Source of the DNA: an uncultured Verrucomicrobiales bacterium
Lineage (GTDB): Bacteria; Verrucomicrobiota; Verrucomicrobiia; Verrucomicrobiales; Akkermansiaceae
NCBI GenBank assembly: GCA_937969495.1
Contig: CALBVY010000039.1
Span: forward strand, 9,374-73,373
Reading direction: 5' to 3'
Length of the DNA stretch: 64,000 nucleotides
This document shows positions 2,095-55,644 of this stretch, piece after piece. A program made the translations under genes and the position numbers. The first letter of the stretch is position 1. Every line of letters starts with the position of its first letter. Below the pieces are notes generated by a model. It saw only the letters and a list, made by a program, of their open reading frames with translations, did not search any database and was not told the origin of the DNA.

Positions 2095-3195
2095 TTAGAA
2101 ATTTAAACCCTGCAGAGATTTGGGTAAAAACACACCGTCTTTTCTGATGAGTTTACCATCAAAGTAGATCTCGCCACCGCCGTAGTCTTTACGCTGAATG
2201 GTGACCATATCCCAGTGGACTTGGGAGCGGTTACCGTTATCAGCTTCTTCGTATGCCTGACCAGGTGTGAAATGAAATGAGCCGGCGATTTTTTCATCAA
2301 AGAGAATATCACGCATGGGCTCTTTAATCCCTGGGTGGAAGCCAAGAGCAAACTCGCCGATGTAGCGAGCACCTGGATCCGAATCGAGAATCTTATTAAG
2401 CGCCTTAGTCTGCCCTCCTGCCTCCGCTTTAACGATTTTCCCTTTTTCGAATTCAAGGCGGATGTTATCGAATGGAATCCCCTGATAGACCGTGGGCGCA
2501 TTGTGTGTGATCACTCCCTCGACGCTATTTTTAACTGGAGCGGTAAAGACTTCGCCATCAGGGATATTATAGTTTCCACCACAGACGATGGCAGGGATAT
2601 CTTTGATGGAAAACTGGAGATCAGTGCCTTTGTTTTTAATATGCACGTGATCCGTTTTTTCCATGAGCCTCTTCAGAGCATTCATAGCAGGGAGCATGGA
2701 TTTATAATCGAGCAGGCAGACGCGGAAGTAAAAATCTTCAAACGCCTCCGTACTCATGCCCGCTTGTTGTGCCATAGCAGGGTGTGGCCAGCGTAATACG
2801 CACCACTTAGTTTTTGCCACGCGGTGGTTCATCACCTTGCGCATGTGCTTCATGACGGTTTTCATTTTTGCCGATGGCACATCACTGGTCTCGCAGATAT
2901 TGTGTGAGCCACGGATGGCAATGTAGGCATCCATATCTTTTATCTCTGCGAGCTGGTGCTTTGCGATAACCGCATATTGATCATCGGTAGCCCCCATAAA
3001 AAGCTCACGCCCTAGCAGACCGTGATCAACACGCACAACGGGGGTGGCTTTTCTCGCTCTCACCTCCCGAATAAGTGCGATGCCTAACTCATCTGGAACA
3101 TCCATGAGATGGAGCAGCACCTTTTCACCTTTCTTAATTGAAGTGGAGTAACGAACGAGTTGTTTAGCGAGATCAATAATGCGTGAGTCCTTCAT
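2095..3195 (-). CDS. Aminopeptidase, M29 (AmpS/PepS, thermophilic metalloprotease) family
   Basis: [38 protein letters not shown] motifs. ATG 3195 chosen over the upstream non-ATG start. Confidence 0.9.
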
Positions 3196-33780: not shown

Positions 33781-35027
33781 CAGGGTCATCCAGCTAGGGA
33801 GAGGAGATGGTTCCTGTAATCATCATCGGCCATTGCCTTCATCTGCTTCATGGGTAAAGATTTGTTAATGGTTTTATCCAATTTCAGTATGTTCTGAGCT
33901 AGTCGTCTCAACACGGCAAAATTGCGGGCTGCGTTTTTCACCCTCACTTGTGAATGGTCTTCGCGATACAGAGTGTCTAAAACCCAGTGGCAACCATTTT
34001 CAATACTCCAGTGCTGCCGTACCAAGCTTTGAAAAGTTTCAGCGCACCCATCCAAGCTGCTGATATAGAATCTCTTCTGCTTGCTGGTTTTCATGCTACT
34101 TAAACAGTAAGTCTCGGATTCGATCATGATCAGGCATTGAAGCCCGTTCCATTTTTTGCGAACCGAGCGTGACATCCAGTCAAGCTCGTTAGTGACAGCT
34201 ACTCGCCGTGTACAAACTCGACCATTGGCTTTTTCTGTTTGCTCACAAAGGCTCCAAGCCTTGCTTTTTTCCTGGGCCACCTGCGTGGTTGCAAAATGAA
34301 ACTGGTCAATAGCCTCATTGTGCAATGTCCCTTGATTGCGCTTGAGAGCCATAAGGTAGTCAGCTCCCTTGTCCTTCACTTTTTTTGCGATTGCTGTCTG
34401 GGTACCCATGGCATCCACGGAAATGACATGACCTTTGATCTCTAGCTGCTCAAGAAGAAGTGGAATGGCTGGGATCTCATTACTTTTTTTCTGCACAAAT
34501 TCCACAGCAAGTGTCACTCCTGTGTCAGCAGCCCAGGCACTCAGGCAATGCTCCTGTTCCGAACTGGACTTCCCACTACCTCTGATCGTTTTGCCATCGA
34601 TAGCTATGAGTTGTTTTGCTAACTCAGGGTGAAGATCCCTGATGTGTTCAACCACGCATTTGCTGAACTGCTGGGGATCCATGAGGGAAAACAGGTTAAT
34701 GAGAGTCTGCTTAACCGGGATACCATTGGGCAATTTGATCCATTTTTTTAACCACCGTTCATGAACATGGGCAAACTCAACAATCCCTGAAAAGGATTGA
34801 ACCCCGCAGACCAACGCGCTGACAGCAATAAACAAAATCTCCCCAAAGTAGTGTTTTTTGTTCCCTCCGAGACGAGGATCTTCGATGACGATGAATCGTT
34901 CAAAACCATTGGGTAAACCTCCCGAGTAGTCATTTTTATTTGGATTTCTGGGCATCCAGAAATTATAAGGCGCCTAACAAAAAGTACAACTCTAAATTGT
35001 CAATATTTCCCTAGCTGGATGACCCTG
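33781..35027 (-). mobile_element. ISAs1 family insertion sequence, 1247 bp
   Basis: Perfect 20-bp terminal IRs CAGGGTCATCCAGCTAGGGA (33781-33800) and its complement (35008-35027); 10-bp TSD GTAGCCATTT at 33771-33780 and 35028-35037. Confidence 0.95.
33786..34955 (-). CDS. ISAs1 family DDE transposase
   Basis: EDPR, IAIDGKT, KSNEI.A, VDAMGTQ, LKRNQ, RQHWSIEN..HWVLD..YRED; stop codon lies inside the IR. Confidence 0.96.
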   Translation of the reverse strand: MPRNPNKNDYSGGLPNGFERFIVIEDPRLGGNKKHYFGEILFIAVSALVCGVQSFSGIVEFAHVHERWLKKWIKLPNGIPVKQTLINLFSLMDPQQFSKCVVEHIRDLHPELAKQLIAIDGKTIRGSGKSSSEQEHCLSAWAADTGVTLAVEFVQKKSNEIPAIPLLLEQLEIKGHVISVDAMGTQTAIAKKVKDKGADYLMALKRNQGTLHNEAIDQFHFATTQVAQEKSKAWSLCEQTEKANGRVCTRRVAVTNELDWMSRSVRKKWNGLQCLIMIESETYCLSSMKTSKQKRFYISSLDGCAETFQSLVRQHWSIENGCHWVLDTLYREDHSQVRVKNAARNFAVLRRLAQNILKLDKTINKSLPMKQMKAMADDDYRNHLLSLAG

Positions 35028-39231: not shown

Positions 39232-39306
39232 GGCGGAGTGGCCAAGTGGTAAGGCATCGGTTTGCAAAACCGACATTCGCGGGTTCGATTCCCGCCTCCG
39301 CCTCCA
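39232..39306 (+). tRNA. tRNA-Cys (GCA)
   Basis: Acceptor stem GGCGGAG/CTCCGCC, anticodon arm TCGGT-TTGCAAA-ACCGA, T-loop GGTTCGATTCC, encoded CCA end. Confidence 0.97.
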
Positions 39307-41755: not shown

Positions 41756-42922
41756 TCATCTTTGGTAAATTGGCAGGATTTGCATGGATGGAGTTAAGGC
41801 AATAATAGCCAAAGATGTGGAGTAAGCCTGCCCATAACGTGCTGAACGCTCAAAGGCCGGCCAATGACCAGAGGCCAATTGTTTTGGCAAAAGATAGTTA
41901 TAACACTCCTTCATACATTTTACCCACAAAGCTCCACCCATCTGAATAGCTGCTTGAGTCACATAATAACACGAATAGTAAGCATAGATTGTATGCCCTC
42001 CAGTTGCTTTAAAACACAGTGGTGAAGCAGCATTAAACCGATACAAATAGCGACATGCCCGCTCAAGTGAGGAATGATCATGTCTTGCTGCTAGTCCTAT
42101 GCAAAGAGTTCCCGCAGCGGTCATCACAAATGAACTTTGTCCACGAACCAAGTAACTGAAACCTCCGTCAGGGCATTGCGTCTTGACAACGTAAGCCACA
42201 ATACGGTTCATGACATTTTCTGGCACATCAAATCCAGCATTACGAATAGAACGTAGTGAGCTTACATGCCACGCTGTAACTGATAAATCAGAATCATTAC
42301 TCCCATGAAGACGGGTGTAACGAAACCCTCCATCGTTCATTGACGATTTTTTTCTAATATCCCAGAGCTCTAAGGTGAACTTAAGTCCCTTGGTGATCGC
42401 CGCTTTAACGCGGAATGTATGCTTAGGATCAGTTAAGCCATAGACCTCTCCAAGCATAAGCATACAAATGGCATGGTTATAGGTCTTGGCAGTACCGCCT
42501 GCACCACGCACGTCCGCCTCACGTATAGGAACATTAATTAAAGCAGTATTAATTTCCTGACTCGCAAAAAGTCCGCTTTTCTTTTGGGTTGTAAGCACGT
42601 AGTCCAATGCTTTATCGATCTGCTTGCCATAAGGACCTTCGCCAGGGCGGTGACCACGCGATAAATATGCCATAATCGCAAACGAAGTAATAGCTGGCTT
42701 CCCGTGATTTAGAGTGGGAAAACTACCATCTGCTAGTTGCAATTTAGAAAGTGCCCGTAGCCCTCTATCTACGCTGGTAGTTAGCTTTTGCATCTCCGCA
42801 CTAGTTAGAGCCTGAGGGAGTGGTCCGGAAGGATCCATCAGCGGAAGCTTATCTGTTGGAGCCTGTCCTAGGCAGTATCCCGATGAATAGGTTAATAAAA
42901 TAATGTAAACAAAAGTTTTCAT
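41756..42922 (-). CDS. Prenyltransferase/squalene-oxidase-repeat secreted protein, paralog 1
   Basis: LQLADGSF, DGGFRY, SDLSVTAW, QCPDGGFSY, LPIYQR; ATGA overlap with the upstream gene. Confidence 0.85.
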   Translation of the reverse strand: MKTFVYIILLTYSSGYCLGQAPTDKLPLMDPSGPLPQALTSAEMQKLTTSVDRGLRALSKLQLADGSFPTLNHGKPAITSFAIMAYLSRGHRPGEGPYGKQIDKALDYVLTTQKKSGLFASQEINTALINVPIREADVRGAGGTAKTYNHAICMLMLGEVYGLTDPKHTFRVKAAITKGLKFTLELWDIRKKSSMNDGGFRYTRLHGSNDSDLSVTAWHVSSLRSIRNAGFDVPENVMNRIVAYVVKTQCPDGGFSYLVRGQSSFVMTAAGTLCIGLAARHDHSSLERACRYLYRFNAASPLCFKATGGHTIYAYYSCYYVTQAAIQMGGALWVKCMKECYNYLLPKQLASGHWPAFERSARYGQAYSTSLAIIALTPSMQILPIYQR

Positions 42923-45900
42923 TTGTTTTTCTCATTATTGTTATTTTCCTCAGCTATTTCGCGGAAATACTGTTCTATAGCCTCTCGATATGCCTCTGGA
43001 ATATCTGAGTCAACATCTTGACTCAAACTTTGCCTCAGCTCACTTGAGAGCTTGTTCCAACTTTCACCTCCTTCAAAAAGCTTAGTTCCACGGTTTTTCC
43101 ATGGAACGGCGATTTTTTTATAAAGAGCTTCAGACATAGCATTACGATTCTTATTAGCTTTTTGCTGAGCTTTAGCTGCATTACGTTGAGCATTTTTAGC
43201 TTGTTGCTGCTGCTCTTTTTTAGCTTGTTGCATCTCCCGACGCTTCTTTTCTATTTCCTTTTTCTCTTTTTTCTCTTTTTTTGTAGCCTTCTCCCAGTCA
43301 GTTTTCACCTTAAGATTAAAGGTTGGTTTTATACCTAGTTCCATCTTCGCTTCTCTTGGCTGTCTGGCTTCTTTTTCTAGTCTAGCAAGAGTATCTTGCA
43401 GCGCTTGTAACATATCTTCCTCGTTGAGAGTTTTTGCTGGGGCAGGAGGCTCTTCAGGGTCCGGCTCCTTGTTCTTTTCTTTGACAAATTCAACAATAGC
43501 CATATCTAACAATTTAACACCTTTCTCTATTAACTCTGCGGCTTTTTCCTGATGAGGAATGGCATTCTTAGCCCAAGGAGCTAAGTTATGTGTTAATATA
43601 TTTTTTTGAGTTTCGAGAAGATCTTTTTCCATAATCTGGCTAAGCTTATTAATCGTTTCATCTATTTTTACTGACACACCACTCAATCTAGCAAGTTCAG
43701 AAGAAAGCCTTAAAACAGTATTGGCTGTCTCAGAATTAATCTCCTTCTGCAGCTGCATCACAAATGCCTGGTAGTCTTTTTTATCCAGACAACCTAACAA
43801 ATAACGATTGGATTTTATTGATAAATCCATTGCTGTGAGGTCTGAGATCCTTATATCAACATACTCTCCATCTAAACGTTTAATATCTACATCCGCTAGA
43901 ATAGCCTCCGCTCGTTGATGGGCATGATTTAGTTTTATGAAATAACTTTTGAGCTCACTGATTTTTTCCGTTGGAGTCTCGGCCAAGCTCGTTGCTATGT
44001 TAGATAGACCGGAGAATGCTTTTGTTAATTTTTGACACTGTTCTACAGAAGCCTTTTGAGGGATCCAAATCTGGGCATTCCCCATGGCATTGGTTGTTTG
44101 ATTAGAGAATTCCATCAGACGTTCTTTCAAAATATCTGACAGCTTCTGCATCGGAAACTCTTCAACAGCTAACTCCTTATTGATATCAACAAGTAACAAC
44201 TGTCGATTCCGAAGCTTAGAAAGTACTTCTCGGAAAATACCGCCACCTGTTGGATTGAGCCTGGTGAGCATTTTTGAACGTAGGTCAGGTCGCTCTTGTA
44301 AGAGTTCGCTCAATCTCTTGAGAAGCTCTCTTTTAAATTTTATTTTGGCAATCTCATCTTTTATTTCTTGATCTGACAACTCAGCACGGAGTGTCGGGTA
44401 GGGGCTACCTGGTCATCCGCCTCATGTAGAACCTGGCATATCTTCGACGGTAACGGTATGCATCTTTTTGAACTGATGAGCCAAATTTTCAATTTCTTCC
44501 ATCTCGATGATGGATTCAAACTGTGATTCTGTTTCCTCCAATAGCTTGATTACCCATCTGAGCCGTTCATCAACAGCATCAAGCTTGACCATAATAAAAT
44601 CAGGATCAGGTTTTTTCAGAGCTTCTTTCATTGCCATCACAGCGGGTGCAAAGCCGTTTTCTACTATACCCTTAGCTTGTATCCCAAAGAATGAGTAGGG
44701 AGTGCCCTCGCTGATTTTTCTAAGATTCTCAGCGCTTTCCGCTCCTTTCTCAAGAATCTGAATTAACTCTGGGGAGAGATTACGAGAAGTATTCTGCAAG
44801 CTTTGACCTACTCTCTCTATTTGTTTATCTTTTACTAAATCATCAAAGCGGATCAAAGCAACAAGACGACGACCTTCTTGTGCGTTTTCCCGGATCCCTT
44901 CGATAACATGCTTAATCGCAATCTGTTTTTTCTTTTGTCCGTCACCTGCAACAAGATGACTTTCGTATTCATCTACAGTTACTTTCGCCGATTTACTTTG
45001 AGCTGATTCACTTTCAAGATCTAGTTTACGTTTTGCTATCTGCTCCTCTTTAGCTCGGTTCTGATTCTTATCACGGTTTTCTTTTTGTGCTTTAGCGATA
45101 GTATCAATTGCCTTATCGATTTCTTCTTCAACCTGTTTGAGCTTGGACTCCGAGTTACCAGATTCTGCAGCCTCTCCAATCAGTTCCTGAATTTTCGCAA
45201 TTGATTTTTTGACGTCGTTTTTTAAATCTTCCGAATCAATTTCTTGAGCCATCTCTTGAAGCTCGTCCACTTGTTTAGAAAGATTTTGTAAGTTGTTGGT
45301 CTGGTTCTGATCCTGCTGTCCTTGCTGACCCTGTTGACCCTGTTGACCCTGTTGACCCTGTTGACCCTGTTGACCGTCGATACCTTGGCGTATTGAATTA
45401 GCCTCTTGTTTTACAGCAGATAAGCCTGACCGCAGTTTGTTTAAATTCTCTGCTTGAGCCAGTTCCCTCTGAGCTTTTTGGAGTGCTCTTTGTGCTTCTT
45501 GATTTAGATTATGAAGTGCTTGTTCTGCTTTTTGAATATTACCTTCAGCTTCTTTCAAGTCTTCTTTAGATACATCCGGAGATTTTCCACCCCCAAGGCT
45601 TTTCTGGGCTTTACTGATTTCACTCTTTATAGCTTGCAGCTGATTTTTAGCTCCTTCATCCAAAGAACTTGCGGACTTTTTAGCTTCACTTAACTGCTGG
45701 CGTGTTTTTGCTGTCGCTGCGGCCGCTGATTGATTTTGTTTGCCGCTTTGTTGAGAAGTCTGCCCTTGCTTCTGATTTTCACCTGACTGTTTAGCCTTCA
45801 TCGCTTTCTTGTTAGAAGCGTTGGCGCTAGCCAATTGATTTTTTAATTCTCCTAGTTTAGCTATCTTCTCTTGCAGTTTTTCCTCTTGTTTTCTGAGTTC

Positions 45901-47820
45901 CTGATATTCAAGGTCGTCTTGCTTAGATTCATTCTTAGCAATTTCGTTCTCCAGCTCACGTCGCATTTTAGTCAAAGCTTCACGTGCCTTAGCAATTTCA
46001 GCCTGGCTCGATTGAAGATCCTTCATAGGATTTTTGTCAGTCTTTGCGTCCTCCAATTTTTGGTTAGCCTTAGAGATAGAAGACTTCAGATTTTTCAATT
46101 CCTCACTATTGATATCTTTCAGCTGATCTGCTCTCTGCTTTGCTTTGCTAACATGGTCTTGAGTTTTCTGAGCTAACTGCTTCTTGTTTGATTGATCATC
46201 TGGCTCCACATTTGCCTTCAAGGCCTGAGAGTTTGCTTCTTTAGCTTTTCTAAGTTCATCGTCTAGCTGATTCATTTGGCTTAAAATTTGTTTAAGCGCA
46301 TCATTTTCTTTTTCCAGTTCATCAACTAGAAATTGATTAGATTTCTCAAATGAAGCTAACCCTTTTGAGTCTTCTACTTCGACCAAATAATTAAGCTGAG
46401 AATTTTCTGTAATAGGTAATTTACTAAGATCAAGAGTAACAGAACTTTCTATTTTCTTTGAACCCTTTTGGTCTTTAAGATCTATGGGAAAATAAAACTT
46501 TTCTTTCTCCCCCTCTGCATTTGTTACCTCTGCAACTAGACGAGCCGCTTCCACCCCATAGTCATCCTTTGCTTGAAACTTAACCTCAAGCAATTCATCT
46601 GCTTTCATAACAAAAGTTTCTGTATCTTTTAGAAGGTTTACCTTAGGAGCTTTATCGGCAATAGCAACTAAGCTTATTTTCATTTGAGATTTCAAATTAC
46701 CTATTTTTGAAGTCATTTTAAAATCAGCATGAACTGTATTGATAACATTGACTTTATGGGTGTAGGTCTTTGCTGAACTTTCAGTCAGTATCTCTTGAGT
46801 AACTTTACCCCCTGTATTGGTATCAAAGGTTGCCTGAAGAACTTCTTGGTCAACTTCGATCTCGAAATCAACCACACTGCCTTGAGGTATTTTGATCTTA
46901 CGTGGAAGCTTACTCAGGATCCAAGGTTTCAGTTTAGTATATGCTGGAGGTGTAATGGTAATTTTCCCACTGACGATAGCAGGCTTATCAATCATAGTAA
47001 CCTGCTTCCAAGCTGACTGAGTATCACCAGCAATAACACGATAAGAGAAGTCTGCTACCCTATTTAATATCTTGTGAGAAAGGCTCCCAGTAGCTTGATC
47101 GATGTCAATCAAACGCTCTTCGATCAACCCGCTCGTAGAGCGTTCTTGGACTTTTACTTGATCCGGTATTTTCCCAGAAACGGTAACCTCAATTGAGTAA
47201 TCTTTTCCTCTTGGATGAATCACCTCACCTTCTTTCTGAGAAATTATCGTTAGAGTATTATTATTCCATGGACTTAACAGCCTATCCAATAATTTAGGGA
47301 AAGCAGATCCCATCATAAAAGCAAAACCGCATAATAAAATAATAGAACCAACAAAAGTAAAAGAAGCTTGTTTAAATGACCGGCTTTTAATTAATTTACT
47401 ACTTCCACTTTTTATTTCTAAATGATTGACCTGATCTCCTACGGCTTGAAGTAAATTTGTCGAACAATTTTCTGCGCCCTCTAATTCTACTGAAGTCACT
47501 AAACGTTCCTCGAGATCGGGGTTTACTTCATCTAGCCATTTTGCTGTTTCTTCCTGACTAGATTCGAACTTCATTTTTCCCCAGACCCATCGAAAAGAAA
47601 CAATGAGTACTACTAATACAACTAAACTAAGTATAACCCGTGACCATAAAGATTTTAACTCAAAATTCCAGTCAATATACATCGCTAGTATAACTGGTAA
47701 AACAATGGCACTAGCAATACCTAAAAAGAGATAGATTGTCCGAATTAGCCTACGCTCACGTTTTTCAGCCGAGAGAGCTTTCAGAGTTTCTTCAGATAAA
47801 TGATTGTTATTTTGTGTCAT
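42919..47820 (-). CDS. Giant membrane-anchored coiled-coil protein (DUF4175-like architecture), probably one 1633-aa selenoprotein with U-G-G-U at 1133-1136; otherwise two ORFs 44422-47820 and 42919-44379
   Basis: Both track ORFs share a frame. The linker reads ...DMPGST-TGA-GGC-GGA-TGA-PGSPYPTLRAELSDQE. Three N-terminal TM segments, Ig-like beta region, long coiled coils, C-terminal W..L...LR..L.Q..IPEAYREAIEQYF motif. SECIS-like hairpin downstream of the TGAs. Confidence 0.7.
44375..44395 (-). promoter_or_regulatory. Candidate bacterial SECIS element
   Basis: GACA-CUC[CGUGCU]GAG-U-UGUC: 7-bp stem, bulged U, 6-nt loop with G at position 2; loop starts 24 and 33 nt after the two UGAs. Confidence 0.55.
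45313..45375 (-). repeat. 9-bp tandem repeat encoding (GQQ)7
   Basis: Five perfect GGTCAACAG units (45331-45375) plus two synonymous variants. Confidence 0.95.
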
Positions 47821-55065: not shown

Positions 55066-55644
55066 ATGAGACTTCTCTATATTACCCTAGCCCTTGTTCT
55101 TGCGCAGCCAGTTTTAGCGCAGCGAAATCGTGTTGATAATGCGCCTAAAGTGGGTGAACCGATTCCCCAGGTATCCGCCGTGGCAATGAAAGGTCATCAA
55201 AAAGTGGATCTTTCCAAGCCTGATAAAGTGACGGTTCTTATCTTTGGGTCTCATACCTGAGGGCCATTCATGCGGCAGACCGGGCGTCTGCAGAAAATGT
55301 ATGAAACTTATGGTGAAAAGGCTGATTTTTGGTGGATCTACATTCAAGAGGCGCATGCTACGGATGGCCGCCGGCCTAGCAAAAAAGTTAAAATTGCTCT
55401 GCATAAAACGTTAGAAGACCGGAAAAAAGCTGCTGCTGGGTGTAGCGAAGCTTCTCGTTTAAAGGTGCCTGTGCTTCTTGATGATATGCAGGATACAGTT
55501 TCCAATGCCTACTCAGCGCGCCCTGAGAGGTTTTTTATTCTCGGTGCAGATGGTAAGGTGGCTTACTCAGGAGCGCGCGGCCCCAGAGGCATTAATCTTG
55601 ATGCCCTAGAGAAGCGGTTAAGTGAACTTACCACCAAGGAGTAA
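55066..55644 (+). CDS. Secreted iodothyronine-deiodinase-like (thioredoxin-fold) selenoprotein, 192 aa, Sec65
   Basis: Track ORFs 55066-55260 and 55270-55644 are in frame: VLIFGSHT-TGA-GPFM, then YIQEAHATDG. This matches the deiodinase FGS.TUPPF and YI.EAH..DG motifs. Signal peptide present; SECIS-like hairpin downstream. Confidence 0.88.
55275..55291 (+). promoter_or_regulatory. Candidate bacterial SECIS element
   Basis: GCAGAC[CGGGC]GUCUGC perfect 6-bp stem; loop begins 20 nt after the UGA and has G at position 2. Confidence 0.65.

What the first reader, a model, noticed from the sequence alone, without database searches (positions are those of the whole stretch)
44375..44409. SECIS-like hairpin, plus a second small hairpin, right after the double UGA
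Seen (minus strand): GGUAG[CCC]CUACC at 44397-44409, then GACA-CUC[CGUGCU]GAG-U-UGUC at 44375-44395. This GC-rich patch stands out from the AT-rich operon. Established: bacterial SECIS models need a G early in the apical loop about 16-37 nt after UGA, and the E. coli fdhF SECIS has a bulged U and a 6-nt loop. The loop here is 24 and 33 nt from the two UGAs. Its CG-starting loop resembles the hairpin after the deiodinase-like UGA. Inference: one SECIS may serve two UGAs, which is mechanistically unusual in bacteria.
Basis: partly seen in the sequence, partly recalled or inferred. Interest (0 to 1): 0.7.

Follow-up and report, generated by a model that had tools for sequence, protein, structure and literature searches.

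The report
SECIS hairpin in new selenoprotein gene
A small RNA hairpin just after two in-frame UGA "stop" codons is very probably the signal that makes the ribosome insert selenocysteine there, which joins two apparent genes into one 1633-residue envelope protein and adds an undescribed family to the known bacterial selenoproteins.

Summary
Both hairpins sit at the stated minus-strand coordinates, 24 and 33 nt after the two UGAs, in the most GC-rich 50 nt of the gene.

The two ORFs (47820-44422 and 44379-42919) are one DUF4175-family gene in a MoxR/DUF58/BatA operon of a Rubritalea-like verrucomicrobium. It reads ...EDMPGST-U-GG-U-PGSPYPTLRAELSDQ....

- **UGA-2 (44415-44413):** six independent orthologues keep a UGA at this position, and five close homologues have Cys there.
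- **Hairpin 2 (44395-44375, loop CGUGCU):** it is present in all six Sec forms at a fixed 24-nt spacing. It has two compensatory base-pair changes and a 3-5-fold drop in synonymous divergence. It is absent from the Cys forms. I read it as a bacterial SECIS.
- **Hairpin 1 (44409-44397):** it shows no covariation, has no G in its loop, and is intact only in the three UGGU genomes.
- **UGA-1 (44424-44422):** it is a lineage-specific extra UGA. That the same SECIS serves it is plausible but unproven.

UxxU motifs, and the single-SECIS idea, are already in the literature for other bacterial families. A deiodinase-like selenoprotein gene 11 kb away shows the organism decodes Sec.

Verdict: a real feature and a new member of a known kind.

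The parts
42919..47820 (-). One gene for a 1633-residue DUF4175-family membrane or envelope protein. Sec is at residues 1133 and 1136. Gene callers split it into a 1132-aa and a 486-aa ORF.
   Evidence: Both ORFs are in the same frame, separated only by TGA GGC GGA TGA. The N-terminal part hits PF13779 DUF4175 at E=2.9e-16. The C-terminus carries the family's conserved end, as in uninterrupted homologues P0002, P0009 and P0011. dN/dS is 0.15-0.22 on both sides of the junction.
44413..44415 (-). UGA-2, the conserved selenocysteine codon, 24 nt before the loop of hairpin 2.
   Evidence: It is an invariant Sec/Cys column (C80 of A1). TGA is present in the window, L001, L003, L004, L007 and L008/L011. 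Cys is present in L009/P0002, P0009, P0011, L012 and L013.
44422..44424 (-). UGA-1, an extra in-frame UGA found only in the UGGU subgroup, 33 nt before the loop of hairpin 2.
   Evidence: It is present in the window, L016 (an independent assembly with an identical junction), L001/L002 and L003. The two Gly codons between the UGAs differ synonymously: GGC GGA, GGA GGC and GGC GGC.
44375..44395 (-). Hairpin 2, the putative bacterial SECIS. It has a 7-bp stem with one bulged U on the 3' side and a 6-nt loop, C-G-U-G-N-U.
   Evidence: It is the predicted minimum-energy element in all six Sec forms. 97.6% of cells are paired and two pairs carry compensatory changes; slid controls give 19-52% paired. 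The loop bases CGUG.U are invariant and the spacing to UGA-2 is always 24 nt. It is absent in the Cys forms.
44397..44409 (-). Hairpin 1, GGUAG[CCC]CUACC. A weak 5-bp hairpin that is not conserved. It starts 12 nt after UGA-1 and 3 nt after UGA-2.
   Evidence: Its energy alone is -3.5 kcal/mol. It shows no covariation and every change breaks a pair. It is folded in the minimum-energy structure only in the window, L001 and L003. The loop CCC has no G.
44365..44409 (-). Stretch of suppressed synonymous change (codons +2 to +16 after UGA-2), covering both hairpins.
   Evidence: Synonymous-codon identity is 0.81 and 0.79 here, the highest of 69 windows of 10 codons; elsewhere it ranges 0.27-0.75. 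dS is 0.31-0.63 for codons +1 to +40 in window vs L001, L003 and L007, against 1.3-1.7 in the flanks.
55066..55644 (+). Comparison feature: a deiodinase-like selenoprotein gene with UGA at 55258-55260 and hairpin GCAGAC[CGGGC]GUCUGC at 55275-55291.
   Evidence: It hits PF00837 T4_deiodinase at E=9.8e-33 with the UGA read as Cys, in the motif FGSHT-U-GPF. The hairpin fold has z=-1.8 and the loop starts 20 nt after the UGA.

Best explanation
The two adjacent ORFs are one gene for a 1633-residue DUF4175-family protein. It belongs to a MoxR-DUF58-BatA envelope operon of a Rubritalea-like verrucomicrobium.

The gene is a selenoprotein gene. UGA-2 (44415-44413) is read as selenocysteine. Hairpin 2 (44395-44375), whose loop CGUGCU presents a G-U dinucleotide 24 nt downstream, most likely acts as a bacterial SECIS. 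It would bind SelB carrying GTP and Sec-tRNA(Sec) and deliver it to the ribosome paused on the UGA.

In this genome and its closest relatives a second UGA (UGA-1, 44424-44422) has arisen three codons upstream, giving a U-G-G-U motif. The most economical reading is that the same hairpin, reloaded with a second SelB complex, also serves UGA-1 from 33 nt away.

Hairpin 1 is most likely a by-product of the Gly-Ser-Pro-Tyr-Pro codons rather than a second SECIS.

The Sec pair sits in a Pro/Gly-rich linker between helices of the probably extracytoplasmic part of the protein. It is inferred to be a redox-active or metal-binding selenol pair.

**Shown:** one reading frame; Sec/Cys correspondence at UGA-2; conservation, covariation and synonymous constraint of hairpin 2; its absence in Cys forms.

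**Inferred:** SelB binding; Sec rather than Cys insertion; decoding of UGA-1 by the same hairpin; location and chemistry of the site.
For: **One gene**
- The frame is continuous across TGA GGC GGA TGA, and the family's N- and C-terminal parts lie on either side.
- Uninterrupted homologues P0002, P0009 and P0011 span the junction.
- dN/dS is 0.15-0.22 both upstream and downstream, at dS 1.3-1.7.
- Downstream start codons called in the orthologues fall at different places.

**Sec/Cys pair**
- Six distinct orthologous loci have TGA at the invariant column.
- Five close homologues have Cys there.

**Not an error**
- An independent assembly (L016) has an identical junction.
- L001 and L003 keep both TGAs although the intervening Gly codons differ.

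**Hairpin 2**
- It is predicted in all six Sec forms.
- 97.6% of cells are paired, with two compensatory pairs (C-G to A-U; A-U to G-C). Slid controls give 19-52% paired.
- Spacing to UGA-2 is invariant at 24 nt.
- Loop bases C, G, U, G and the final U are invariant, while the fifth base, which is a codon second position, varies.
- The peak of synonymous conservation lies exactly over it.
- Cys forms encode PYAKLK.ELSD with no such hairpin.

**Fit to the bSECIS consensus** (loop 3-9 nt, stem at least 4 bp, G in the first two loop positions followed by G or U, 16-37 nt from the UGA; PMC13188914)
- Met for both UGAs.

**Organism decodes Sec**
- A deiodinase-like gene with an active-site UGA and a hairpin lies in the same window.
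- TGA is an ordinary stop for 8 of 39 long ORFs, including this gene's own end.
Against: - No Sec machinery gene (selA, selB, selC, selD) lies in the window, and the genome could not be searched.
- Hairpin 2 alone is weak, at -5.0 to -6.5 kcal/mol, above the -7.5 threshold of the consensus model. No single-sequence fold beats shuffles.
- In the window the minimum-energy fold that includes UGA-1 is a competing structure that disrupts hairpin 2.
- Only six Sec sequences were available. The shuffle control is not a probability.
- Some conservation of the hairpin is confounded with conservation of the peptide PYPTLR.ELSDQ.
- For UGA-1 no homologue has Cys in exactly that column. As I recall it, E. 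coli fdhF work showed a narrow tolerance for UGA-SECIS spacing, which makes 24 and 33 nt from one hairpin non-trivial.
- Broader DUF4175 homologues have no Cys at this loop, so the site is not a family-wide catalytic residue.
Confidence: 0.78

Rival explanations
1. Two recoding signals. Hairpin 2 serves UGA-2 only. Hairpin 1, which starts 12 nt after UGA-1 (close to the 11-nt spacing of the E. coli fdhF mini-SECIS), is needed for UGA-1, either as a second SelB site or as a fold-back spacer that brings hairpin 2 closer.
For: Hairpin 1 is intact (4-5 bp, and in the minimum-energy fold) only in the three UGGU genomes. Two of its five pairs are broken in each single-UGA form. It would stay folded with UGA-1 in the A site and must be melted for UGA-2 (geometry; ribosome footprint from general knowledge).
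Against: The loop CCC has no G or U-G, so it fails the consensus. It is only -3.5 kcal/mol and shows no covariation. The three UGGU genomes form one clade, so the correlation is a single evolutionary event. Its sequence is simply the codons for Gly-Ser-Pro-Tyr-Pro.
Confidence: 0.12
2. One or both UGAs are read as cysteine, not selenocysteine, by a SelB- and SECIS-dependent tRNA-ReC (selC*-type) system. Alternatively UGA-1 is read by near-cognate suppression.
For: Genomes with UXXU-type hydrogenases are significantly enriched in tRNA-ReC (PMC13582414). Cys is the residue in close homologues.
Against: No such tRNA lies in the window. The only tRNA is an ordinary 75-nt tRNA-Cys(GCA). A canonical selenoprotein family (deiodinase-like) is present. 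There is no direct evidence either way.
Confidence: 0.06
3. There is no recoding. The gene is split or decaying. Translation ends at UGA-1 (with UGA-2 as a back-up stop), the 486-aa ORF is translated on its own from TTG 44379 or a later start, and the hairpin is an intercistronic or attenuating structure, or a coincidence of codons.
For: Gene callers annotate two genes in every Sec-type locus. The single-sequence fold energy is not significant. The Rubritalea profundi copy has a 1-nt frameshift 21 codons upstream.
Against: The 12-35 codons between the UGA and the various called starts are conserved in frame and match uninterrupted homologues. Start positions are not conserved. Cys aligns with the UGA. 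The TGAs are kept across dS greater than 1.3. The TTG start lies inside the 3' arm of the hairpin.
Confidence: 0.04

Closest known systems
Bacterial SECIS elements (consensus model of Zhang and Gladyshev 2005, as summarised in PMC13188914; archetype E. coli fdhF)
   Same: A hairpin inside the coding region directly after an in-frame UGA. A small apical loop with G-U at loop positions 2-3. A bulged U in the stem. Loop 24 nt after the UGA, within the 16-37 nt range. The downstream peptide is constrained by the RNA.
   Different: The bulge is on the 3' side, whereas fdhF has U17 on the 5' side (PMC8659212). The stem base is 17 nt from the UGA, against 11 nt for the fdhF mini-helix. The hairpin alone is weaker than the model's -7.5 kcal/mol. 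There is no conserved lower stem. No Rfam family covers it.
UXXU-type Group 4 [NiFeSe] hydrogenases and other predicted bacterial UxxU selenoproteins (Prx-like, FmdB family, metal-binding protein)
   Same: Two UGAs 9 nt apart followed by one SECIS-like hairpin. The extra UGA arose upstream without altering the SECIS. Close relatives carry single-Sec and Cys versions (PMC13582414, PMC13188914).
   Different: The protein family is unrelated (DUF4175, large helical envelope protein). The motif lies in a Pro/Gly-rich linker, not in a CXXC metal site or thioredoxin fold. The partner position varies among relatives: UGGU, UC, CDC, CC, or none.
Deiodinase-like bacterial selenoprotein (PF00837), a copy of which is in this window at 55066-55644
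   Same: Same genome. In-frame UGA followed by a hairpin whose loop begins C-G, 20 nt against 24 nt after the UGA.
   Different: It is a known selenoprotein family with a thioredoxin fold and an active-site Sec. Its hairpin is stronger (6 GC-rich bp, -7.6 kcal/mol) with a CGGGC loop. It has a single UGA.
DUF4175 / TIGR02302 proteins of MoxR-DUF58-BatA operons (Planctomycetota, Verrucomicrobiota, Alphaproteobacteria)
   Same: N-terminal transmembrane segments, the PF13779 region, a long low-complexity helical middle, the conserved C-terminal ...PE.YR.AIE.YF... end, and the same operon neighbours.
   Different: Most members have neither Cys nor Sec at this loop. Many instead have C or CC in a GIPCCRP motif that the Rubritalea group lacks.

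Membership tests
Bacterial SECIS (bSECIS consensus model) | Stem-loop located within the ORF immediately downstream of an in-frame UGA | tested here: met
   Hairpin 2 at 44395-44375 starts 17 nt after UGA-2 and 26 nt after UGA-1.
Bacterial SECIS (bSECIS consensus model) | Apical loop of 3-9 nt on an upper stem of 4-16 bp | tested here: met
   The loop is 6 nt. There are 4 bp above a one-base bulge plus 3 bp below it. L004 has 6 uninterrupted bp. Criteria are from PMC13188914.
Bacterial SECIS (bSECIS consensus model) | G in one of the first two loop positions, usually followed by G or U | tested here: met
   The loop C-G-U-G-N-U is invariant at positions 1-4 and 6 in 6 of 6 Sec forms. Hairpin 1 (loop CCC) fails this criterion.
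Bacterial SECIS (bSECIS consensus model) | [quoted passage not shown] | tested here: met
   24 nt for UGA-2 in all six orthologues and 33 nt for UGA-1.
Bacterial SECIS (bSECIS consensus model) | Minimum free energy of -7.5 kcal/mol or lower | tested here: inconclusive
   Hairpin 2 alone gives -5.0 to -6.5 kcal/mol. The 51-60 nt from the UGA give -8.5 to -16.9, but partly through non-conserved pairings. bSECISearch itself was not available.
Bacterial SECIS (bSECIS consensus model) | Structure maintained by selection in UGA forms and relaxed in Cys forms | tested here: met
   Two compensatory pairs, 97.6% of cells paired. Synonymous identity is 0.8 against about 0.5. dS is 0.3-0.6 against 1.3-1.7. 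No equivalent hairpin in L009, L012 or L013.
Bacterial SECIS (bSECIS consensus model) | Binds SelB and directs Sec insertion | not testable with these tools
   Requires a binding assay, reporter, 75Se labelling or mass spectrometry.
Selenoprotein gene (Sec/Cys-pair criterion) | In-frame UGA flanked by conserved coding sequence, aligned with Cys in homologues | tested here: met
   Met for UGA-2 (A1 column C80). For UGA-1 there is no Cys in the same column, but partner Cys residues lie at -2 (CDC), -1 (CC) or +1 (UC) in relatives.
Selenoprotein gene (Sec/Cys-pair criterion) | Genome encodes selA, selB, selC (tRNA-Sec) and selD | not tested
Indirect support comes from the deiodinase-like selenoprotein gene in the window.
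DUF4175 (PF13779) | Significant match to the Pfam model above its gathering score | tested here: met
   59.1 bits against a cut-off of 27.3, E=2.9e-16, residues 289-487. The C-terminal half matches family members in an exhaustive profile search.
UGA reassignment (code 4 or 25) | UGA not used as a stop; in-frame UGAs widespread in genes | tested here: not met
   TGA ends 8 of 39 long ORFs, including this gene. In-frame TGAs with coding continuity were found only in this gene and the deiodinase-like gene.

The most novel reading that the evidence does not exclude
A single bacterial SECIS programmes two selenocysteine insertions three codons apart, giving a U-G-G-U selenol or diselenide loop. Hairpin 1 would act as a collapsible spacer. 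It is folded when the ribosome sits on UGA-1, looping out 13 nt so that hairpin 2 comes to roughly the same through-space distance. It is melted when the ribosome sits on UGA-2, where hairpin 2 is 17 nt away in linear distance. This would explain why hairpin 1 is intact only in the UGGU genomes, and it would be a new way to relax the UGA-SECIS spacing rule.
Probability: 0.12. Interest if true: 0.7.

Novelty: new member of a known kind. Interest (0 to 1): 0.45.

Why it matters
- **Annotation.** Two "hypothetical" genes, annotated separately in every related assembly, become one gene. This adds a selenoprotein family in Verrucomicrobiota. It was not found in the 2026 review of prokaryotic selenoproteins (term search), in NCBIfam or in any paper mentioning DUF4175.
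- **A natural evolutionary series.** Close relatives show no Cys, C, CC, CDC, U, UC and UGGU at one loop. This is useful for studying how Sec sites and their SECIS arise, and whether one SECIS can serve two nearby UGAs. That question was raised for UXXU hydrogenases and has not been tested.
- **A handle on an unknown protein.** The site marks a probable redox or metal-binding loop in a protein family and operon (MoxR-DUF58-BatA-DUF4175) whose function is unknown.

Tried and rejected
- **Rfam.** The gathering-threshold scan of the whole window and the permissive scan of 44250-44550 gave only the tRNA-Cys and chance-level hits.
- **Single-sequence folding statistics.** Not significant, so they were not used as evidence.
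- **Metagenome scans.** The protein-pattern scan found no relatives. A hairpin-independent DNA pattern for FKKMH..ED gave one unrelated chance hit, L015.
- **Further protein searches.**
  - The A1 profile added only a fragment, P0008.
  - The upstream half alone found nothing.
  - The contig of P0010 starts after the junction and is uninformative.
- **AlphaFold2 of the Cys form P0002.** With 7 sequences the mean pLDDT was 58. The site lies in a linker with pLDDT below 40, so no fold search was run.
- **UGA reassignment to Trp or Gly.** Rejected, because TGA is a normal stop here.
- **tRNA-Cys(GCA) at 39232-39306 as a tRNA-ReC.** Rejected. It is an ordinary 75-nt tRNA scoring 71.6 bits against the tRNA model.
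- **Motif search.** CTCCGTGNTGAG occurs only once in the window, so it does not mark other genes.
- **Sec machinery in the window.** None found.
- **Which UGA is ancestral.** This is ambiguous. Aligning on the downstream block makes UGA-2 the invariant column. Aligning ...GST-U with ...GGT-U would make GG-U a 9-nt insertion. Either way, the UGA 24 nt from the loop is universal.
Full report
**1. What is at the coordinates**

On the minus strand a 1132-aa ORF (47820-44422) ends ...VEDMPGST-TGA. The sequence then continues in the same frame: GGC GGA TGA CCA GGT AGC CCC TAC CCG ACA CTC CGT GCT GAG TTG TCA GAT CAA. This runs into a 486-aa ORF that the ORF finder starts at TTG 44379.

- Hairpin 1 (GGUAG[CCC]CUACC) is at 44409-44397.
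- Hairpin 2 (GACACUC[CGUGCU]GAG-U-UGUC) is at 44395-44375.
- The loop of hairpin 2 begins 33 nt after the first UGA and 24 nt after the second.
- The 50 nt covering the UGAs and hairpins have 62% G+C. This is the maximum of all 50-nt windows in a gene averaging 39.5%.

On the single sequence the fold is not better than shuffled controls (z -0.29 and -1.0). With UGA-1 included, the minimum-energy structure is a competitor that breaks hairpin 2.

**2. One gene, not two**

- The upstream ORF carries the DUF4175 domain (PF13779, E=2.9e-16).
- It lies in an operon with a MoxR AAA ATPase, a DUF58 protein, a BatA-type double-membrane-anchor protein and an 871-aa protein. Three secreted prenyltransferase-like toroid proteins follow.
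- The downstream ORF ends with the family's conserved C-terminus.
- A 774-aa homologue (P0002) and two full-length ones (P0009, 1551 aa; P0011, 1269 aa) run uninterrupted across the junction.

Read through, the window protein has 1633 residues, with the UGAs at codons 1133 and 1136. It has three N-terminal hydrophobic segments and only four Cys.

**3. The UGAs are conserved and correspond to Cys**

I fetched the DNA of every related locus the tools could reach and read the junctions.

| Locus | Junction peptide |
|---|---|
| Window and L016 (independent assembly, identical junction) | EDMPGST-U-GG-U-PGSPYPTLRAELSDQ |
| L001/L010 (uncultured Rubritalea MAG) and L003 | GST-U-GG-U-AGSPYPTLR(A/D)ELSDQ |
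| L004-6 | PPPGGT-U-C-GSPYPKLRVELSDQ |
| L007 | PPGGG-U-GSSPYPTLRDELSDQ |
| L008 and L011 (Rubritalea profundi) | PPGGT-U-PGNPYPTLRAELSDQ |
| L009/P0002 and P0009 (Cys forms) | PPSE-C-D-C-R(S/A)GPYAKLKMELSD |
| L012 and P0011 (Cys forms) | KK-CC-R(A/S)GPYAKLK.ELSD |
| L013 (Cys form) | AEDS-C-PTSPYAKLKSELSD |

- Aligned on the conserved downstream block, UGA-2 is an invariant Sec/Cys column. UGA-1 is confined to the UGGU group.
- In that group the two Gly codons between the UGAs differ synonymously (GGC GGA, GGA GGC, GGC GGC) while both UGAs are kept.
- dN/dS is 0.15-0.22 on both sides of the junction, with dS of 1.3-1.7. Both halves are therefore translated and under purifying selection.
- The start codons that gene callers chose for the downstream part are at different positions in each orthologue. 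This argues against independent initiation.
- TGA is a normal stop in this genome: 8 of 39 long ORFs use it, including this gene's own end. This excludes codon reassignment.

**4. Hairpin 2 behaves as a SECIS**

- It is the predicted structure in all six Sec forms, with the same six-base loop CGUG(N)U and the same 24-nt distance from UGA-2.
- Four of its seven pairs never vary.
- Two pairs change on both sides and stay paired: C-G to A-U in L004, and A-U to G-C in L004 and L008. In L008 this comes through two synonymous changes, ACA to ACG and UUG to CUG.
- 97.6% of cells are paired, against 19-52% when the 3' arm is slid by one to three columns.
- The loop's fifth base is the second position of a codon (Ala, Asp or Val) and varies. 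The flanking third positions do not vary. That pattern points to an RNA constraint rather than a protein constraint.
- Synonymous-codon identity in 10-codon windows peaks at codons +2 to +16 after UGA-2. It is 0.81 and 0.79 there, the highest of 69 windows.
- dS falls to 0.31-0.63 in codons +1 to +40 (window vs L001, L003 and L007).
- The Cys forms encode a different peptide (PYAKLK.ELSD) and have no equivalent hairpin.

Against the published consensus for bacterial SECIS elements (PMC13188914):

| Criterion | Result |
|---|---|
| Loop 3-9 nt | Met |
| Stem at least 4 bp | Met |
| G in the first two loop positions, followed by G or U | Met |
| 16-37 nt from the UGA | Met for both UGAs |
| Energy of -7.5 kcal/mol or lower | Not met by the hairpin alone (-5.0 to -6.5) |

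**5. Hairpin 1 is not supported as an element**

- Its loop CCC lacks the G.
- It is worth only -3.5 kcal/mol.
- It shows no covariation, and every substitution breaks a pair.
- It is folded in the predicted structure only in the three UGGU genomes.

That last correlation is intriguing because hairpin 1 begins 12 nt after UGA-1 and 3 nt after UGA-2. It would be folded when the ribosome decodes UGA-1 and melted when it decodes UGA-2. However, the three genomes form one clade, so this is a single evolutionary event. I keep it only as a low-probability rival and as the novel case.

**6. Does the organism use Sec?**

There is strong indirect evidence. At 55066-55644 (+) there is a deiodinase-like gene (PF00837, E=1e-32) with a UGA at the active-site position (FGSHT-U-GPF). 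A 6-bp hairpin, GCAGAC[CGGGC]GUCUGC, follows it, with the loop starting 20 nt after the UGA. This is a recognised bacterial selenoprotein family (PMC13188914).

**7. One SECIS for two UGAs?**

The extra UGA arose upstream without any change in hairpin 2 or its spacing. L007, a single-U form, has the same hairpin sequence as L003, a UGGU form. Both UGAs fall within the 16-37 nt range. The hairpin would remain outside the ribosome for both, with its stem base 26 and 17 nt downstream.

This is the same situation described for UXXU-type Group 4 [NiFeSe] hydrogenases. The authors of that study propose a single downstream SECIS and note an enrichment of tRNA-ReC, which inserts Cys at UGA (PMC13582414). 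UxxU motifs are also listed for Prx-like, FmdB-family and metal-binding bacterial selenoproteins. The idea is therefore plausible and has precedent, but it is untested here and, as far as I found, elsewhere.

As I recall it, E. coli fdhF experiments found a narrow spacing tolerance (a mini-helix 11 nt from the UGA; PMC8659212). That is why a 9-nt difference is not trivial.

**8. Protein context**

- An exhaustive profile search found only 135 relatives. The distant ones, of planctomycete type, have no Cys at this loop (EDMP.WLKAG..SPY).
- The site is therefore an innovation of a Rubritalea/Akkermansiaceae subgroup.
- In that subgroup a second chalcogen has appeared at -3 (UGGU), -2 (CDC), -1 (CC) or +1 (UC). 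This suggests selection for a vicinal thiol/selenol pair.
- AlphaFold2 of the Cys form was of low confidence (pLDDT 58). It places the site in a non-helical linker with pLDDT below 40, between long helices. I did not run a fold search on it.
- From the positive-inside rule and three N-terminal hydrophobic segments, the bulk of the protein is probably extracytoplasmic (inference).
- A fragmentary relative (P0008) begins with a lipoprotein-like signal peptide just before this region. This is weakly consistent with that location.

**9. Verdict**

Hairpin 2 is very probably a functional bacterial SECIS, and the gene is a previously unlisted selenoprotein of the DUF4175 family. Hairpin 1 is probably incidental. 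The claim that one SECIS serves two UGAs is reasonable, unproven, and not unprecedented as a hypothesis. Novelty: a new member of a known kind.

Noticed in passing
window 55066-55644 (+); UGA 55258-55260; hairpin 55275-55291: A deiodinase-like selenoprotein gene (PF00837, E=1e-32) with an in-frame UGA in FGSHT-U-GPF and a 6-bp hairpin with loop CGGGC 20 nt downstream. ORF finders report only the 124-aa part after the UGA.
   Followed up: partly
L011 (Rubritalea profundi SAORIC-165, NZ_MQWA01000001) about 3160-3170: The orthologue has a 1-nt deletion (GCGGAC to GCGAC) 21 codons upstream of its Sec UGA, which shifts the frame. This is either a sequencing error or a decaying gene in that isolate.
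   Followed up: partly
Homologues P0014-P0052 versus window residues about 1470-1490: Distant DUF4175 homologues often carry C or CC in a conserved G-I-P-C-C-R-P-x-N motif near the C-terminus. The Rubritalea group lacks Cys there (LGIKPTFN) but has the Cys/Sec loop after EDMP. The two Cys sites look mutually exclusive.
   Followed up: no
P0008 (206 aa, 749-nt ENA contig): A relative that begins with a lipoprotein-like signal peptide (…LTLVAVSC) directly before the EDMP loop, and that has neither Cys nor Sec in the loop (EDMPLALGISGNQAESDKSEYPSLKAELSDQ). It may be a different architecture or an assembly chimera.
   Followed up: no
window 45300-45395 (-): A run of GGT CAA CAG-type repeats encoding (GQQ)n, in the low-complexity middle of the protein. 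It gives a weak Pfam Collagen hit (E=0.0017).
   Followed up: no
window 39232-39306 (+): tRNA-Cys(GCA) immediately beyond the last gene of the operon. It is an ordinary 75-nt tRNA, not a tRNA-Sec-like ReC tRNA.
   Followed up: yes
window 33786-34955 (-): A DDE transposase gene (PF01609/PF13808), that is, an insertion sequence, between the ArsP-like permease region and the nuoA-like gene.
   Followed up: no
window 42919-42922 (-): The TGA stop of the selenoprotein gene overlaps the ATG of the next gene (ATGA). This suggests translational coupling, so Sec read-through efficiency could influence expression of the downstream toroid-protein genes.
   Followed up: no
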